Origin: Podospora anserina
Lineage: Eukaryota
DNA: 64,000 nt
Assembly: GCA_017654855.1 (NCBI GenBank)
Contig: CM030336.1
Span: forward strand, 3,534,001-3,598,000
Reading direction: 5' to 3'
A program made the translations under genes and the position numbers. The notes below the pieces were generated by a model. The model was given only the letters and a program-made list of their open reading frames with translations, ran no database searches and was not told the origin of the DNA. Below, one piece after another: positions 1,857-32,072 of this stretch (its first letter is position 1; each line of letters starts with the position of its first letter).

Positions 1857-2520
1857 ATGAGCATGCGTAAGTACACATTACCTTGCTAAACATCTTCCAA
1901 CAACTAGTACTCACCTCTCTTTTTGATGATCACAGCAAAACTTCACTGGCCTACCATCACCGACCGCCTCGCTAAACTCCCCTCAACAATCCCGCCTCAC
2001 GAGCGATACGTCCATGTAACCAACAATATCGCAAGCGTGGTCCGATGGAATAAGGATCTTCTTGAAGGGATGCTCCTCGAGGCGCAGGCCCATTGTTGCG
2101 CTGCTGAGTTTGCGGCAAAAGATTGGTCCGAGAGTACCGATGCCAATGATAGCAAATCTGCTGAGAGGACAAGTTCCAAGGAAAGGGAAGAGAATGAGGA
2201 AAAGTGCAGGTTTTATGAGATTTTGATCGAGGTTTTGGAGGGTAACGTCAATCTTTTCTGCGTCTCAGGAAGTTTTCTAATGATTTGCATAGGAAAAATC
2301 AAGAAGTTGAAGACTCCGATTGATGAGGAGAGTTGGGAGGATGATTACGGTAGGAATATGGTGTTTTTCTTCTTGGGCTATCAAGTCGGAAGGAGGTTCG
2401 CTGACTGTAGTGATGTCTACAGAGATGGTTGACGAAAATAGAGACTCGGATGACCAGTGGGTGCATATTACCTTAGGCAGCCGTGCAAGCGGTCTGGCCA
2501 GCGCTCAAAATAGACTGTAG
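1857..2520 (+). CDS. Small-protein array member 1 (intact; introns 1867-1935, 2242-2292, 2350-2410)
   Basis: Spliced MSMPKLHWPTITDRL...MLLEAQAHC...KCRFYEILIEVLE...WEDDY|VMSTEMVDENRDSDDQWVHITLG...; GT-AG introns with branch sites; AIM-like DSDDQWVHI. Confidence 0.7.
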
Positions 2521-3054
2521 CATTCTCGTTATCGAGTGGAATTATGTGTGCGCAGAAGAACGTTTAAGTCAAGCTTTTTTTTTCAGACAGGCTCGCCGCA
2601 CTATGCACTTTGTCAATCCGCACTAGTGTGGGGCTACTTGAAATGTCGAGGAAGACATACATCTACAACCACTATCTTTATAGCCATACTACCCATGATA
2701 TTTAATTATTGAAAAATAAATACCTACATGAAATTGCCCATAAAAAACCTATTTCTTGGGAAAAATAAATTGTTTTCGCCCTTGCACGATGTGTTTGAAG
2801 ATGGTTCAACGTGAGGCCTGTTGATACATGCAGCGCTAGAATAGGAGTTTAGATGGGAGGGTTAGGGGTATATCTGGGGAAAAGCGGCTCACATAGTATG
2901 GACTGACAAAGTGCATAGTACGGCGAATGTGTCTCTTCTTTTTTCTTGAATAGCTCAATGAACCTGTTTTTACAAAGCCTCAGCGGTTGAGTGAGTCTTC
3001 AACCTTACTCGTTGTTTTGGGCGGAGAGGGGGAAAAAAGATAGCAAAAGTAAAT

Positions 3055-3166
3055 TGACAACTGTGAGATTCGAACTCACGCCTCTTTCGAGAGTAGAATA
3101 CCATTCATTTCTGAGTGGAAGATGTTATCTTGAGTCTACCGCCTTAGACCGCTCGGCCAAGTTGCC
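3055..3166 (-). tRNA. tRNA-Leu(CAA) with intron
   Basis: Reverse complement GGCAACTTGGCCGAGCGGTCTAAGGCGGTAGACT-CAA-G[intron about 30 nt]TCTACTCTCGAAAGAGGCGTGAGTTCGAATCTCACAGTTGTCA; D arm, long variable arm, TTCGAA T loop, paired acceptor stem. Confidence 0.93.
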
Positions 3167-3521
3167 TGTGTGATTCATGTTTTTCTGCATCGGAAATAGA
3201 CATCACAGCACAGACCTCCCAGACCATCAAAGGTTGATCACGACAACACCAAAGGGGGAGCGCCACGCTTGTGTTGTCAGGCAGTACAAAACTTTGAAGT
3301 CATCTGTGTGGATCTTGACGCCGCCATGGATGCAAGTTGCTCCAGGTGGCGCCACCATGTCCATGGTGTACGAGAGCAAGATCTTGCTCTTCAAGTGAAT
3401 AATACCTGTTTCCCATTTTGGACTTCCACCTTCTTACTTTCAAACACCAATACAGCCCGCCCTGTTTCAGAGAACCTCACAACAATATCATCACAAACCA
3501 ACCTCACCATGCACCGGCACA

Positions 3522-4078
3522 ATGTCCACCAGCAAAATCTTCCCCTGGTCCTCCATCAAGCCGAAACTCCTCACCTCCGAGGGTCGTTTCATCTACGACG
3601 ACAGCATCTACGCCGACGTCGCCTGTGACATCCTCACCGAAGCCGCCAAACGCAACCCCCTCCAAGAAATGCTCGATGACTCCTTGCGGGCTCTCAAAGA
3701 CGCCAGAAAGCTCAGGGAGAGTGGTGGGGGTGGTAACGATGCTAAGTTGCAGTTTGCCTTCTTTTTCATCTTGACTGGTATGGTGACTGTCCAGCTTAGA
3801 GCGCAGGAAAGAGAGGTCATTTCTGAGAAGATGAAGGGGAGCAAGAGCCCTGGGTGTGAGAGCACGGATAGTGGGTTGAGTGATGGTAGTGGGCAGAGTG
3901 GTAATTTTGGTACGTGGGATGTGGTTTGAAATTGGGAGTGGAAAGACTGACGATGCTGGCATACTTAGTCAAGATCGATCTGGATGAGATCCGGGATGTT
4001 ATGGCGCGAGAGGGGGTCAAGAGAAAAGGCGTTTTGAACAAGGTTTCCGAGTGGTTTTTTGGGAAGGGGAAGAAATGA
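3522..4078 (+). CDS. Small-protein array member 2 (intact; intron 3910-3968)
   Basis: MSTSKIFPWSSIKPKL...LQEMLDDSLRAL...KLQFAFFFILTGM...SGNF|VKIDLDEIRDV...VSEWFFGKGKK*; lacks intron 1 and a clear AIM. Confidence 0.65.
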
Positions 4079-29210: not shown

Positions 29211-29845
29211 ATGAATCCTCCAAACATTTTCAACTGGGACCGAATCGGTAAGCACCCTCCAAACCTACCTACCTAGGTACCTCTTCCGACATATTAACCA
29301 TACCCAGGGCGGGCCCTCAAAAAAGGTCGTGGGCCAGAGAAGATGCCGCTGCAGTCCACCTTTGACGAGATTGCCACCGCCTATTTCAAGGAGGTAATCT
29401 GGAAGGACAAGAAGGTCTCCCTTCACGATCAGCTCCGTGACTGCCGCGAGATGTTGGAGCACAGTGAGTATGCCTGGGCCGATATCCCCACTGAGGATGA
29501 CCATACCTCCGAGACTGCTAAGACTGAGAACATCATGCTGGTTGAGGTGGCTGTCCGCCGCACATTCTTCAGACTTTGCCAGAGCTGAATTAAGGAGAGG
29601 ATGGAGACGGCTGGGGTTTCGGAGGGGACTGAGAATCCTGGCGTGTTGGAGGGGACTGAGAGCCATCCAGGTAAGCGATGCTGAGCGGTCATGAGAGCTT
29701 TCCAGTGGGAGTGTTCTGATGCTGACAAAGATGTCAAATAGGTACAGAGGTTATTCCCACCAACGACAATGCCTGCACGTCCGCGGAGGATCATGGCTTT
29801 GACACCGGCTGTGATGATTGGGTTCTTGTTGAGGGAGCCTCGTGA
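29211..29845 (+). pseudogene. Small-protein array member 10 (introns 29248-29307, 29671-29741; single TGA at the conserved Trp, 29586-29588)
   Basis: MNPPNIFNWDRI|GRALKKGRGP...SLHDQLRDCREML...AVRRTFFRLCQS*IKERM...|GTEVIP...DTGCDDWVLVEGAS*. Confidence 0.7.
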
Positions 29846-30352
29846 TAGGGTTGGATTGGCAGCACAGTGTCCGATGTGGCGCGAAGGGTTCTGGATGGAT
29901 TGCTCATCAAGGGTAGACATGTTGATTGCATTGATGGGGACCAAAGAAGAGCAGGAATCCGGAATAAAAGCTCAACTCTGCTTTATAATACTCGCTTTAC
30001 CTGGATCTGGAGAGCTCTGCGACAGGTTTCGAGGAATAGAATACCAAGTTGCTCCCAGTGACATCAGGGTCCACAATCGTCACATGAGAGGCGCTCGTGG
30101 CGCTCCCAAGTTCACTACCAGACCACATTATATTCACTGCCTTTGACACAAAACTCAAACGCAGGTGAATATCCCATCAGATACCTATTGCTCCCATCAA
30201 GTCCCACCCCATCCTGCCTCATGTATCAAATACATTCCTTATCGCGCCTCAAAAGCTTTCTCTCATGCGCACCCTAATCCATCACCTCACCACCACAAAC
30301 CTTTTTAACCAACCATCTATTCAAGTCAACGTAGCCTCTCCAGTGCTTCACA

Positions 30353-31002
30353 ATGTCCAAGAACGTCTTTGACTGGGAGCCAATCTGTAAGCCCGCCTTG
30401 AATCTCCTCACAAAGACCTGCTAACAAATATAAACAGGCGCCACCCTCATGGAGGGACGCGGTCCCGCAGACCTCCCCCCTCCGGCACTCTTCATGTCAA
30501 CCGCCAGGGCCCTCATTGTCAATCTTCATCAGGAAAAGAAGATTCCGATTCGCAGACTCATTCGTGACTGCAAGGAGATGAGAGACAATAGCGGATATGC
30601 ACTGGGCGATGTTTCTTCTAGCAAGAAGAAAGCTGACAATGCACCTACTTTTTTAGGGACGTCTTCAAAATACAATTCGGGAACTTGCCGGTGAAGGTCA
30701 TCATCCGTCGCCAGTTCTTTCAGCTTACTTTGACCTGGCTGGAGGGCATGCTGCAGAAGGCTTGTGAGACTGCTGTTGCTGGGGTGGATGATTATGGTAA
30801 GTTGATAACACTGAACTGAGGGCTTGACCTTATCTTATCTTATGACCGCTATCAAATCGAAGTTTTATCAGCTAACAGATTCTGTTCAATGGCAGATGGT
30901 GTCCCAAGCGACCAGGATATTCTCAACTCGGAGCCTGACTGGGAGGAAGTCACTGGGTTGGAGGATTGGGTCTGGGTTGAAAAAACAGATATCGAGGCTT
31001 GA
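30353..31002 (+). pseudogene. Small-protein array member 11 (introns 30387-30437, 30797-30895; frameshift near the T-run about 30649-30654)
   Basis: MSKNVFDWEPI|CATLMEGRGP...RRLIRDCKEM.../...VIIRRQFFQLTLTWLEGM...GVDDY|DGVP...SEPDWEEVTGLEDWVWVEKTDIEA*. Confidence 0.68.
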
Positions 31003-31462
31003 TTGAGCTTGAAAGACAGCATCGCTCTTCTGTTTCTCAAGAACACTCCTTTCTGTGGGTGGCATGCGATGCAACTCAAAAATCCATCAAGAAAGCCAGA
31101 CGAGCTTTTCCAGGTATTAACCTTTCAATACCTTATCTGTGATTTTCTGTGCCACGTAATAAAGAGCCACAATTGTCTCATGTCAGCACACAAAGGTAAT
31201 GCAGGGCGTTCTTGCAACAACCTTAAAAACTGCGGCTGGCCGTGATCTAGAACCTTTTTCCATCCTCCTCTTACTGTCAAGTCACGATCCGCAATACCAA
31301 GCCACCAGCCGTCAACAAGAAAAGCCAGGCAGCCAACAAAATACTGTCTTTGGGTCCAAGTTAATTTCCGAACTTAACCCATAATCTTACCCAGATCATT
31401 CCCACAAGCTCCAGACAACAACTAAATTCCCCACCCAAGATATCACGCAAAAAACCAAAATC

Positions 31463-32072
31463 ATGGACCTCGGCAACACAGACACCATGGACGTCTCCTC
31501 ATCCGACGTCCAAAACACACCCCCACCATCAATAGACCCAACCTTCAACTGGGACGAGATCCGTAACGTCCCCTCCCTATCCCATTCTAAACCCCTCCTA
31601 ACCACACATCCCAGGCCCCCTCCTCCTCAACCTCCCAACCGACCCCTCCTCCCCCGGCGATCCCACCACTATCCCCCAAGAAAACTTCCAACCTATCTTC
31701 TCCCGCCTCCTCGACACCTACATGTCCCTCGACCCATCCGAAACCTTTGACGACATCGTCTACCTCCACAAACTCCGCACCCTCTCCCAAGGATGCACCA
31801 ACCACCTCGCCATCTGCACTCACCTCGAGCAACAGTCGTCCATCCACGACAAAGACGACGACGTCCGGCTCCGCAGAGAGTTCTTCGAGATGCTGGCGCA
31901 GAATCTCGAGGTGTTTATCAGGGGCCAGGAAAAAGTCGTCGAGAAGCTCTGGACGCAATCGGACTGGAAAAGGGAGCATGATGTCCTCGGTGGATTAATG
32001 GGGTTGAGCATGGGTGGTGCATCGAGGGAAGCGAAGGAGGAGGAGGAGATGGAGGGGTTGGAGGGTAGTTAG
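31463..32072 (+). CDS. Small-protein array member 12 (intact; intron 31563-31614)
   Basis: ...DPTFNWDEI|RPLLLNLP...LRTLSQGCTNHL...VRLRREFFEMLAQNLE...acidic tail; no second intron or clear AIM. Confidence 0.68.

What the first reader, a model, noticed from the sequence alone, without database searches (positions are those of the whole stretch)
1857..32072. Hidden tandem family of about 12 small, highly divergent paralogs with shared motifs and intron positions
Seen: twelve + strand loci (starts about 1857, 3522, 4720, 6440, 8398, 24358, 25146, 26615, 28158, 29211, 30353, 31463) share an N-terminal motif (LHWPTI, FPWSSI, FPWPQL, FDWEAI, FDWSMI, YIWKDI, FNWGAI, FNWDRI, FDWEPI, FNWDEI). In 7 copies a phase-1 intron follows the Ile codon exactly. 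The core has LIRDCRAM / QLRDCREM / LIRDCKEM / LRQDCQEV / LLRDARAK / LRSDALNM and RNKFF / RRTFF / RRQFF / KRHFF / QRDFF / RREFF, and most copies have a second phase-1 intron, often after [DEG]-[FY]. DNA similarity is not apparent by eye. I recognise no named domain. Inference: an old, fast-evolving, locally expanded family; its position around an NLR cell-death locus hints at a role in immunity or genetic conflict.
Basis: partly seen in the sequence, partly recalled or inferred. Interest (0 to 1): 0.88.

Follow-up and report, generated by a model that had tools for sequence, protein, structure and literature searches.

The report
Small helical-protein gene family flanking PNT1/HELLP
The Podospora chromosome-5 region around the PNT1/HELLP cell-death genes carries a real, old, fast-diverging tandem family of small helical proteins of unknown function, about half of whose copies are broken in this strain.

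Summary
Twelve + strand loci between 1857 and 32072 share an N-terminal [FYLH]xWxxI motif, a helical core (RDCxxM, RxxFF) and phase-1 introns. Seven have a GT donor exactly one base after the Ile codon (0 on the minus strand; shuffles mean 0.87). I add a C-terminal acidic WxxV/I motif in a disordered tail.

Five copies (c05, c08-c11) are related beyond doubt. c01, c02, c04, c06 and c12 pass a shuffle test at p<=0.001. c03 and c07 are weak.

The window is Podospora anserina chromosome 5. The two blocks flank pnt1 and hellp. The family is only partly hidden: seven copies are annotated hypothetical proteins (5_8032, 8034, 8075-8079). It matches no Pfam family, no solved sequence and no specific fold.

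A profile search of 1.84 billion proteins found 16 hits, all in Podospora, Triangularia, Apiosordaria or Cercophora, where they also appear arrayed. A tree shows the paralogs predate these genera. Six copies plus a fragmentary c04 and one relic exon carry stops or frame breaks here.

Function is untested. My best guess (about 0.3) is adaptors whose tail docks a common partner, most likely Atg8.

The parts
1857..2520 (+). c01 (= 5_8032). Exons 1857-1866, 1936-2241, 2293-2349, 2423-2520; 156 aa. Motifs KLHWPTI, CRFYEILIEVLEG, tail DDQWVHI. Intact ORF.
   Evidence: The spliced model has the same exon structure as the annotated P. pseudoanserina protein P0005. All three introns are phase 1. Shuffle test against the core-family HMM: 8.3 bits, 2 of 2000 shuffles reach it. 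hhalign to the core family gave only prob 13.
3522..4078 (+). c02 (= 5_8034). Exons 3522-3909 and 3969-4078; phase-1 intron after GNF. N-motif FPWSSI. Intact ORF.
   Evidence: The ortholog P0014 shows the spliced C-terminus. hhalign to the core family: prob 33, E 4.5e-4. Shuffle test: 10.3 bits, 0 of 2000.
4720..5250 (+). c03. N-motif FPWPQL and tail-like DKEWVDI at 5166. In-frame TGA at 4984-4986. Downstream exon structure unresolved. Probable pseudogene; weakest member.
   Evidence: Shuffle test: 1.5 bits, 94 of 2000. Only the unnamed Logan ORF P0009 covers it.
6577..6831 (+). c04. Core fragment only (ARALVGTLNGDAGIPAVLLLSQCQALF ... ARFAATQMFLYYLQGDL). No convincing N- or C-terminal exon. 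Relic.
   Evidence: Core-family HMM E 0.059 among 2323 ORFs. Shuffle test: 10.7 bits, 0 of 2000. jackhmmer from c09 recruits it.
8398..8941 (+). c05. Exon 1 8398-8434 (FDWEAI), intron 8435-8487, second intron 8771-8825, tail DDDWNVV. Exon 2 has a TAA at 8532-8534 and then a frame change. Pseudogene, unless a 156-nt intron (8435-8590) skips helix 1.
   Evidence: Leave-one-out HMM E 2.8e-6. The reading frame after the acceptor at 8487 gives ARLTRKPGTAHELF*, 9 of 14 residues identical by eye to P0016 (A. backusii); the core lies in another frame.
9664..9777 (+). Relic C-terminal exon of a further c05-like copy (DVIPCADDIRKLEENWVVIDADE). No upstream core found.
   Evidence: Core-family HMM E 0.002, matching profile positions 120-152. 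Reading frames shown.
24358..24919 (+). c06. FDWSMI, intron 24413-24478, core LRSDALNM. Second intron 24753-24821 has a phase-2 donor and a phase-1 acceptor, so the tail exon (EMQWEMV) is out of frame.
   Evidence: Core-family HMM E 0.0046. Shuffle test: 22.4 bits, 0 of 2000. The same ORF end appears in the independent Logan protein P0004.
25146..25620 (+). c07. Core LTKICQELMHKI. In-frame TAA at 25347 and TAG at 25398. Intact phase-1 intron 25447-25525 after EDF. Tail EEDWEVI. No N-terminal exon. Pseudogene.
   Evidence: Shuffle test: 3.3 bits, 56 of 2000.
26615..27566 (+). c08 (= PODANS_5_8075). Exons 26615-26648, 26714-27025, 27088-27566; 274 aa. About 150 aa of Lys/Glu-rich coiled coil lies between the bundle and the tail DDDEDWVIVEAGSA. 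Intact.
   Evidence: The model matches P0036 and P0013. Leave-one-out HMM E 5.4e-4. A contig of run X3 covers 27366-27556.
28158..28729 (+). c09 (= 5_8076 of sibling species). Exons 28158-28191, 28246-28563, 28626-28729; 151 aa. Tail SNWDVDADDADWVMVGKADLV. Intact.
   Evidence: The model matches the spliced orthologs P0011, P0023 and P0025. Leave-one-out HMM E 7.4e-6.
29211..29845 (+). c10 (= PODANS_5_8077). Exons 29211-29247, 29308-29670, 29742-29845. In-frame TGA at 29586-29588 at the conserved Trp codon. Tail CDDWVLVEGAS lies beyond the stop.
   Evidence: P. anserina S protein P0030 ends at the same place (105 aa). Five sibling species have Trp there (137 aa). Leave-one-out HMM E 4e-8.
30353..31002 (+). 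c11 (= 5_8078 of sibling species). Exon 1 30353-30386, intron 30387-30437, last intron 30797-30895. Frame break near the T-run at 30649-30654. Tail PDWEEVTGLEDWVWVEK.
   Evidence: The T. verruculosa homolog P0017 is continuous across the break. The same broken ORF is Logan protein P0008, seen on 19 contigs. A run X4 contig ends at 30387 with 8 letters that match the start of exon 2.
31463..32072 (+). c12 (= PODANS_5_8079). Exons 31463-31562 and 31615-32072. FNWDEI, RREFF. No acidic Trp tail. Intact and the best conserved copy.
   Evidence: A contig of run X1 joins 31562 to 31615, skipping 52 nt with GT..AG ends. Orthologs in P. comata (97%), C. samala (65%) and T. verruculosa (46%). hhalign to the core family: prob 63.5, E 6.8e-5, 98 columns.
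17696..20917 (-). Context: pnt1 (Pa_5_8060), an NB-ARC NLR with about 12 near-identical 42-aa TPRs of the kinesin-light-chain type.
   Evidence: Pfam hits NB-ARC, TPR_10 and TPR_12. The published pnt1 primer matches 20894-20917 exactly. Of 16 PDB matches at E<=1e-10, the top 14 are kinesin light chains.
21507..22390 (+). Context: hellp (Pa_5_8070), a HeLo-like cell-death protein with a C-terminal PP amyloid motif.
   Evidence: PigL_N/SesA and Ses_B hits. Passages of PMC7885112.
11304..16721 (+). Context: transposon relics (DDE_1 transposase ORFs, retroelement integrase) between the first block and pnt1.
   Evidence: Pfam. RIP-like dinucleotide indices occur only at 14001-16000, with a raised TpA/ApT ratio at 12001-14000.

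Best explanation
SHOWN. These loci are one gene family found only in Podosporaceae. It encodes small soluble proteins of 130-275 aa.
- The predicted fold is a short N-terminal helix carrying the invariant Trp and Ile, followed by three long helices. The RDCxxM motif lies in helix 2 and the invariant Phe-Phe in helix 3.
- A disordered, net-acidic tail follows. In the core members it ends in one or two [DE]-W-x-x-[VI] motifs.
- The array is ancient. The paralogs c05 and c08-c11 each have orthologs in other genera. The T. verruculosa accession order (338, 340, 341, 342) mirrors the c08-c11 order.
- The array evolves by birth and death. In this strain c01, c02, c08, c09 and c12 are intact. c03, c05, c06, c07, c10 and c11 carry stops or frame breaks, c04 is only a core fragment, and there is one further relic exon.

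INFERRED. The N-terminal Trp/Ile and the Phe-Phe are hydrophobic-core residues, so they are structural. The C-terminal Trp motif is a short linear docking motif. It stays at the extreme C-terminus even across a coiled-coil insert of about 150 aa in the c08 lineage.

MOST LIKELY MECHANISM (about 0.3). The proteins are adaptors. The conserved tail docks a common partner, and its form (acidic residues, then W-x-x-V/I in a disordered region) fits an Atg8-interacting (AIM/LIR) motif best. The fast-diverging helical bundle would bind different targets. Being next to pnt1/hellp may reflect a shared fast-evolving region or a functional link. No result here decides between these.
For: FAMILY.
- Pairwise phmmer against 1309 six-frame ORFs gave only family links and no other hit at E<=10.
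- Leave-one-out HMMs recovered 5 of 11 core exons at E<=1e-3.
- A T. verruculosa protein (P0015) hits five window loci by tblastn, at E 3e-29 to 2e-4.
- Shuffle tests gave 0-2 of 2000 for c01, c02, c04, c06 and the three c12 orthologs.
- The N-motif with a phase-1 donor occurs 7 times, against a shuffle mean of 0.87.

DISTRIBUTION.
- 16 of 1,835,955,588 representatives scored E<=1e-3. Nine are Podospora proteins and seven come from T. verruculosa, A. backusii or C. samala.
- Accession numbers are consecutive on contigs of equal length.
- The tree gives five orthogroups with support 85-100.

FOLD.
- AF2 of P0015: pLDDT 74, helices 8-15, 26-43, 48-71, 82-109, and tail 126-140 below pLDDT 50.
- P0001 (c12 group) gives the same order of helices.

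TAIL.
- 9 of 10 core members have [DEQN]Wxx[VIL] in their last 45 residues, and 9 of 10 tails are net acidic.
- In the window, 13 acidic WxxV/I matches lie on the + strand and 2 on the minus strand; 10 of the 13 lie in family loci.

BIRTH AND DEATH.
- The lesions are listed under parts.
- c10 is stopped in P. anserina but not in five sibling species. c09 is truncated in P. pseudocomata (P0024).
- There is no RIP signature in any copy.

AUTOPHAGY CONTEXT. Passages of PMC3689799 say PaATG8 (idi-7) and autophagy are strongly induced during incompatibility, and that loss of autophagy accelerates cell death.
Against: - No binding was tested. The AIM/LIR reading rests on my recalled consensus and on motif shape only, and such short motifs arise often.
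- c12, the best conserved copy and the one with spliced-contig support, has no such tail, nor does c02. If they share the family's function, the tail is not essential to it.
- Only 1 of 5 extended members has the tail motif.
- About half of the copies are broken in this strain, which fits weak or no selection.
- The N-terminal motif is also of the form D-W-x-x-I, so Trp motifs here may be structural in general.
- The two AF2 models share one alignment, so their likeness is not independent evidence.
- Membership of c03 and c07 is weak.
Confidence: 0.35

Rival explanations
1. The tails are ligands for a kinesin-light-chain-type TPR domain, in particular the sensor TPRs of the neighbouring NLR PNT1. 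On this reading the family members are endogenous ligands, guardees, decoys or inhibitors of the PNT1/HELLP amyloid cell-death pathway.
For: The family flanks pnt1 on both sides. Of 16 PDB sequence matches of the PNT1 TPR region at E<=1e-10, the top 14 are kinesin light chains 1 and 2, at E 7e-47 to 7e-34. Kinesin light chain TPRs bind short Trp-acidic peptide motifs (abstracts listed). The first tail motif is W followed by D or E in several members: DWDVV, DWEEV, LEWDVG, EEDWEVI.
Against: The better-conserved second motif has hydrophobic residues after the Trp (DWVIV, DWAIV). That does not fit the recalled L/M-x-W-D/E form. Being neighbours is weak evidence. Whether the arrays in other genera lie next to a pnt1 homolog could not be checked. 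No binding test could be run.
Confidence: 0.07
2. The Trp motifs serve another partner or the protein itself. They might be SUMO-interacting-type hydrophobic/acidic motifs, vesicle-coat adaptor motifs, or a tail that folds back on or bridges the helical bundles to regulate or oligomerise the protein.
For: The tail core V/A-x-V/I flanked by acidic residues also resembles a SUMO-interaction motif (recalled consensus; sequences). The N-terminal D-W-x-x-I of the same shape is predicted to be a docked helix with block-mean pLDDT 68-93. So Trp motifs can be structural in this fold.
Against: The tail is predicted disordered (pLDDT below 50). It is separated from the bundle by about 150 aa in c08, which argues against a fixed intramolecular contact. 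No partner is indicated by any result.
Confidence: 0.25
3. The array is a slowly decaying set of lineage-specific genes with little or no present function. The shared motifs are only what remains of common descent.
For: Six copies plus a fragmentary c04 and a relic exon are disrupted in this strain. Different copies are disrupted in different species. Orthologs within the species complex average 93-97% amino-acid identity, although genic DNA is reported to be more than 98% identical (passage of PMC10936905). That suggests relaxed constraint.
Against: Five orthogroups have persisted as open reading frames across four genera, with the termini and the Phe-Phe invariant. The intron positions and phases are kept. 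c08 is 274 aa and open in all six species listed. A spliced c12 contig and a contig with a spliced-type overhang for c11 were seen.
Confidence: 0.15
4. The resemblance is chance or an artefact, and the loci are unrelated ORFs.
For: Identity among paralogs is only 9-25%. c03 and c07 do not stand out from shuffles.
Against: All the statistics listed under the best explanation. Independent annotated spliced homologs have the same architecture.
Confidence: 0.02

Closest known systems
Proteins with C-terminal Atg8-interacting (AIM/LIR) motifs, such as the selective-autophagy receptors Atg19 and Atg34 of yeast or TP53INP1/2 of mammals (examples and consensus recalled, not from a call)
   Same: An acidic stretch followed by W-x-x-V/I/L in a disordered region at or near the C-terminus, sometimes in more than one copy. 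Small soluble proteins.
   Different: No sequence or fold relationship. Atg8 binding is untested. No cargo is known. c12 and c02 lack the motif.
Trp-acidic cargo-adaptor motifs that bind kinesin light chain TPR domains (SKIP, calsyntenin; abstracts of PMC5450233 and PMC6214655 in the listing)
   Same: Trp within acidic, disordered sequence, often as two nearby motifs. A kinesin-light-chain-type TPR domain is encoded next door in PNT1.
   Different: Most family motifs have hydrophobic rather than acidic residues after the Trp. The TPR here belongs to an NLR, not to a motor. No binding evidence.
Partner genes of fungal amyloid NLR signalosomes: HELLP and SBP with PNT1, HET-S with NWD2 (PMC7885112, passages read)
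   Same: Small genes clustered with an NLR at the same locus, in the same fungus.
   Different: Those partners are defined by an amyloid motif shared with the NLR N-terminus. No member of this family matches the PP motif model Ses_B (0 of 16). The published cluster is described as a two-gene cluster.
Annotated hypothetical proteins PODANS_5_8032, 5_8075, 5_8077, 5_8079 and QC76x_508032/34/75-79 of the Podospora anserina species complex
   Same: They are the same genes as c01, c02 and c08-c12.
   Different: The records name them only as hypothetical or uncharacterised. Several models are unspliced or truncated (P0006, P0012, P0059). No record seen here links them as one family or notes the motifs.

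Membership tests
Any Pfam-A family | Score above the gathering threshold of a Pfam model | tested here: not met
   No family reached its cut-off for the family's 11 exon translations or for 16 full-length members. No family was matched by more than 1 of the 16. 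The best was DUF3425 for c03 only: 19.1 bits against a cut-off of 27.1.
PP-motif amyloid signalling partners of PNT1 (HELLP/SBP type) | A PP / RHIM-like amyloid motif (Pfam Ses_B) shared with the NLR N-terminus | tested here: not met
   Ses_B hits the hellp ORF but 0 of 16 family members at E<=1.
AIM/LIR-bearing Atg8 interactors | Core [W/F/Y]-x-x-[L/I/V] preceded by acidic residues | tested here: met
   9 of 10 core members and 1 of 5 extended members have [DEQN]Wxx[VIL] in the last 45 residues. Window copies are listed. The consensus itself is recalled.
AIM/LIR-bearing Atg8 interactors | The motif lies in an accessible, disordered region | tested here: met
   The tail of P0015 (residues 126-140) has pLDDT below 50 with no secondary structure. 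This is a prediction only.
AIM/LIR-bearing Atg8 interactors | Direct, motif-dependent binding to Atg8 | not testable with these tools
   No fungal Atg8 sequence was in the window or in any result I had fetched, and complex prediction became unavailable.
Trp-acidic ligands of kinesin-light-chain-type TPRs | Motif of the form L/M-x-W-D/E within acidic sequence (recalled consensus) | tested here: inconclusive
   W-D/E occurs in the first tail motif of several members (DWDVV, DWEEV, LEWDVG, EEDWEVI). The second, better-conserved motif has W-V/A.
Trp-acidic ligands of kinesin-light-chain-type TPRs | Binding to the TPR groove | not tested
One family with the core members c05 and c08-c11 (for c01, c02, c04, c06, c12) | Significant profile match plus the same order of motifs and introns | tested here: met
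   Shuffle tests gave 0-2 of 2000. hhalign gave prob 63.5 for c12, 33 for c02 and 13 for c01. Phase-1 introns are shared.
One family with the core members (for c03, c07) | Significant profile match | tested here: inconclusive
   94 and 56 of 2000 shuffles reach the real score. Support comes from position, strand, the N-motif (c03), the tail motif, and the EDF phase-1 intron (c07).

The most novel reading that the evidence does not exclude
The acidic Trp tails are the natural ligands, or decoys of ligands, read by the kinesin-light-chain-type TPR sensor of the neighbouring NLR PNT1. The tandem array would then be a repertoire of guardees, decoys or inhibitors that sets the trigger of the HELLP amyloid cell-death pathway. 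That would name the first ligand class for a fungal NLR.
Probability: 0.06. Interest if true: 0.9.

Novelty: new variant of a known kind. Interest (0 to 1): 0.5.

Why it matters
What fungal NLRs sense is an open question, and no ligand or guardee is known for PNT1. An undescribed protein family that is conserved across genera lies on both sides of pnt1/hellp, and its docking-type tails are simple to test. It gives concrete candidates to test against PaATG8 and the PNT1 TPR domain.

Even without such a link, it is a clean example of birth-and-death evolution in a lineage-restricted family. Paralogs were kept for longer than the split of four genera. Losses differ between sibling species, and gene structure is preserved where sequence is not.

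It also shows that current Podospora annotations miss or mis-splice several members.

Tried and rejected
- **Whole genome.** None is held for this window, so copies elsewhere in the genome could not be sought.
- **First word-based search.** The search with c09 exon 2 found nothing. This was a limit of the method, because the profile search later found its orthologs.
- **Pfam.** Nothing. DUF3425 for c03 was below its cut-off and was dropped.
- **PDB by sequence.** The family profile gave 0 hits at E<=1.
- **Foldseek against PDB.** 0 matches at E<=0.001.
- **VIA-align wide.** Best Z was 8.2 (a TFAP2B helical domain). That is within the tool's stated noise for helical models, and rows down to rank 50 score 6.5, so no fold assignment was made.
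- **ESM Atlas.** No usable feature hit for P0015 or P0001, and structure rows had TM 0.34-0.44.
- **RIP as the cause of divergence or stops.** Rejected. No copy has RIP-like indices; only the transposon region does.
- **Sequencing error as the cause of the frame breaks.** Unlikely for c06, c10 and c11, whose broken readings recur in independent records (P0004, P0030, P0008 on 19 contigs). Not excluded for c05.
- **RNA evidence.** No RNA holder is listed. The four runs laid are RNA only by guess and are contigs. Most of 24200-30160 had no cover, which says nothing about expression.
- **Complex prediction** (PNT1 TPR with the c09 lineage). There is no result.
- **Earlier findings of this scan.** Nothing relevant.
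- **Literature.** The 12 gene identifiers searched appear in no held paper. The 2026 NLR paper PMC13449251 does not mention PNT1 or HELLP in its main text. [quoted passage not shown] Supplements are closed, so I could not see them.
- **dN/dS and synteny with pnt1 in other genera.** No fungal DNA other than the window was available.

Full report
**Where the window lies.** The family's database relatives come from the Podospora anserina species complex. A paper on the third amyloid NLR signalosome of P. anserina names Pa_5_8060 (pnt1, NB-ARC plus TPR) and the adjacent Pa_5_8070 (hellp) (PMC7885112, passages). Its pnt1 forward primer matches the window exactly at 20894-20917 on the minus strand. 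The 1033-codon ORF at 17696-20797 (-) has NB-ARC and twelve TPR_10 stretches. The + strand ORFs at 21507-22390 have PigL_N/SesA and Ses_B. Transposon relics lie between the first block and pnt1 at 11.3-16.7 kb.

**The observation.**
- *First intron.* In seven copies a GT donor starts one base after the Ile codon of the [FYLH]xWxxI motif. That is 7 of 15 + strand motif matches and 0 of 8 minus-strand matches. In 200 shuffles of both strands the mean was 0.87 and the maximum 4.
- *Second intron.* It is phase 1 in eight copies, and in six of them it follows D/E/G-F/Y.
- *DNA similarity.* blastn among the loci finds only two short matches below E 0.01, both over motif-coding DNA.
- *New feature.* I found an acidic W-x-x-V/I motif at or near the C-terminus of c01, c03 and c05-c11, and in a stray exon at 9664-9774. 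The window has 13 such matches on the + strand and 2 on the minus strand.

**Is it more than chance?**
- phmmer of each core exon against all 1309 six-frame ORFs of the window returned only self hits and family hits: c10-c11 at 4e-8, c05-c10 at 5e-4 and c08-c09 at 3e-3.
- Leave-one-out HMMs recovered c05, c08, c09, c10 and c11 at E 4e-8 to 5e-4. c06 came in at 0.2. c01, c02, c03, c07 and c12 were not recovered from the core exon alone.
- With a profile of ten full-length homologs, real sequences beat all or nearly all of 2000 shuffles for c06 (22.4 bits, 0 of 2000), c04 (0), c02 (0), the three c12 orthologs (1, 0, 0) and c01 (2). c03 (94) and c07 (56) did not stand out.
- hhalign of the core family against the c12 group gave probability 63.5 and E 6.8e-5 over 98 columns. 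Against c02 it gave 33, and against c01 it gave 13.
- I conclude that ten loci are one family. c03 and c07 are probable relics, supported by position, strand, terminal motifs and, for c07, an intact EDF phase-1 intron.

**Relatives elsewhere.**
- A profile search of 1,835,955,588 representative proteins gave 16 at E<=0.001. Nine are Podospora proteins or ORFs of the same loci. Seven are from Triangularia verruculosa (KAK4196338, 340, 341, 342), Apiosordaria backusii (KAK0721364, 365) and Cercophora samala (KAK0669920).
- Consecutive accession numbers on contigs of one length suggest tandem arrays there too. In C. samala the c08-like and c12-like genes are five accession numbers apart on a contig of the same length. 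This is an inference, since I could not read those genomes.
- A maximum-likelihood tree gives five orthogroups: c08 with C. samala and T. verruculosa 338; c09 with 340; c10 with 341; c11 with 342; and c05 with the two A. backusii genes. Support is 85-100.
- So the duplications predate these genera, and the order c08-c11 appears to be kept.
- Seven window copies are already annotated as hypothetical proteins: 5_8032, 8034 and 8075-8079. None of the 12 identifiers I searched occurs in the held literature.

**Gene models and decay.** Annotated spliced orthologs confirm my models for c01, c02, c08, c09 and c12.
- *Spliced contigs.* A contig of run X1 (RNA by guess only) joins 31562 to 31615 with GT..AG ends, which is exactly the c12 intron. 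A contig of X4 ends at the c11 donor with eight letters that match the next exon.
- *c10.* It has a TGA at the conserved Trp codon. The P. anserina S protein stops there (105 aa), while five sibling species read Trp (137 aa).
- *c11.* It changes frame near a T-run, whereas the T. verruculosa homolog is continuous. The same broken ORF is on 19 Logan contigs.
- *c05.* It has a TAA and then a frame change in exon 2, judged against A. backusii P0016.
- *c06.* It has a phase-2 donor facing a phase-1 acceptor.
- *c07.* It has two in-frame stops.
- *c03.* It has an in-frame TGA.
- *Other species.* c09 is truncated in P. pseudocomata.
- *Cause.* RIP indices are normal in all copies.
- This pattern is birth-and-death evolution.
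- *Divergence.* Orthologs within the species complex average 93-97% amino-acid identity, although genic DNA is said to be more than 98% identical (PMC10936905, passage). That suggests relaxed or diversifying selection. This is an inference, as no dN/dS was possible.

**The protein.**
- AlphaFold2 of T. verruculosa P0015 with a 16-row alignment gave pLDDT 74. It shows a short helix at the Trp/Ile motif (8-15), three long helices (26-43, 48-71, 82-109; block-mean pLDDT about 90 over most of their length) and a tail below pLDDT 50.
- The c12-group protein P0001 gave the same order of helices. It is not independent, because the alignment is shared.
- Trp, Ile and the first Phe of Phe-Phe are invariant across 16 sequences. 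The second Phe is nearly invariant, and both Phe are invariant in the 10-sequence core alignment.
- No Pfam family, PDB sequence, Foldseek match or convincing VIA-align match was found.
- By eye, the sequences show no signal peptide or hydrophobic segment.

**How it may work.**
- I read the N-terminal motif and the Phe-Phe as core residues of a four-helix unit.
- The tail motif behaves like a docking peptide. It is acidic and predicted disordered. It sits at the extreme C-terminus, and it is kept there across a coiled-coil insert of about 150 aa in c08 and its C. samala ortholog.
- Its form fits the recalled Atg8-interacting motif best. Autophagy and PaATG8 are induced during incompatibility in this fungus (PMC3689799, passage). 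I put this at about 0.3.
- A bolder rival starts from the PNT1 TPR domain, whose 14 best PDB matches are kinesin light chains. Those TPRs bind Trp-acidic peptides (abstracts). The tails could be PNT1 ligands or decoys (about 0.06).
- c12 and c02 lack the tail. That weakens any tail-centred function for the whole family.

**Verdict.** This is a real, previously unlinked protein family restricted to Podosporaceae. It lies in an ancient tandem array that now flanks pnt1/hellp, and about half of its copies have decayed in this strain. Its function is unknown. Interest is moderate, and the novelty lies in the family and its possible docking tails, not in any shown mechanism.

Noticed in passing
window 29586-29588: The TGA that ends c10 sits at the Trp codon conserved in c08, c09 and c11. 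The P. anserina S annotation stops at the same place (105 aa), while P. comata, P. pseudocomata, P. pseudoanserina, P. pseudopauciseta and P. bellae-mahoneyi read Trp. It is a species-specific nonsense allele.
   Followed up: yes
window 17696-19240 (-): The PNT1 TPR array consists of about twelve 42-aa repeats that are almost identical except at a few positions (F/E, R/S, D/S, YR/FW). Its best solved-structure matches are kinesin light chains 1 and 2, followed by two designed TPR proteins, one of them named in the PDB as a putative P. anserina kinesin light chain.
   Followed up: partly
window 12001-16000: Only this transposon-relic stretch shows RIP-like dinucleotide indices (TpA/ApT 1.16-1.21). 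The gene family and the rest of the window do not.
   Followed up: yes
window 27088-27480: c08 carries a Lys/Glu-rich coiled-coil insert with internal repeats (KKKLGETEK-like units). Its C. samala ortholog has an insert of a different sequence at the same place, so the spacer evolves freely while the tail motif stays.
   Followed up: partly
window 30858-32300: One contig of run X1 runs from the last exon of c11 through all of c12 (spliced) and beyond the end of the stretch laid. This means either overlapping transcripts or read-through between neighbouring copies.
   Followed up: no
window 32222: All four runs laid read G where the window has A. It is probably a strain difference. The window also differs from P. 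anserina S protein PODANS_5_8075 at one residue (E versus K), so it may not be the reference strain.
   Followed up: no
window 32461-33924 (-): A Gig2-like (PF07350) gene lies just downstream of the array. It is split into two ORFs, presumably by an intron.
   Followed up: no
window 41415-47117 (-): Three very long minus-strand ORFs lie here. One has a weak sacsin-domain hit (below its cut-off), one only a low-complexity PARP-like hit, and one none. A large uncharacterised gene may lie here.
   Followed up: no
P0007 versus window 30590-30660: The sibling-species annotation of c11 removes the frame-break region as an extra intron (RDNSG|DVFK). In the window I found no GT donor in the phase needed for that junction. 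The only donor that restores the frame (30564) would cut into the conserved RDC motif.
   Followed up: partly
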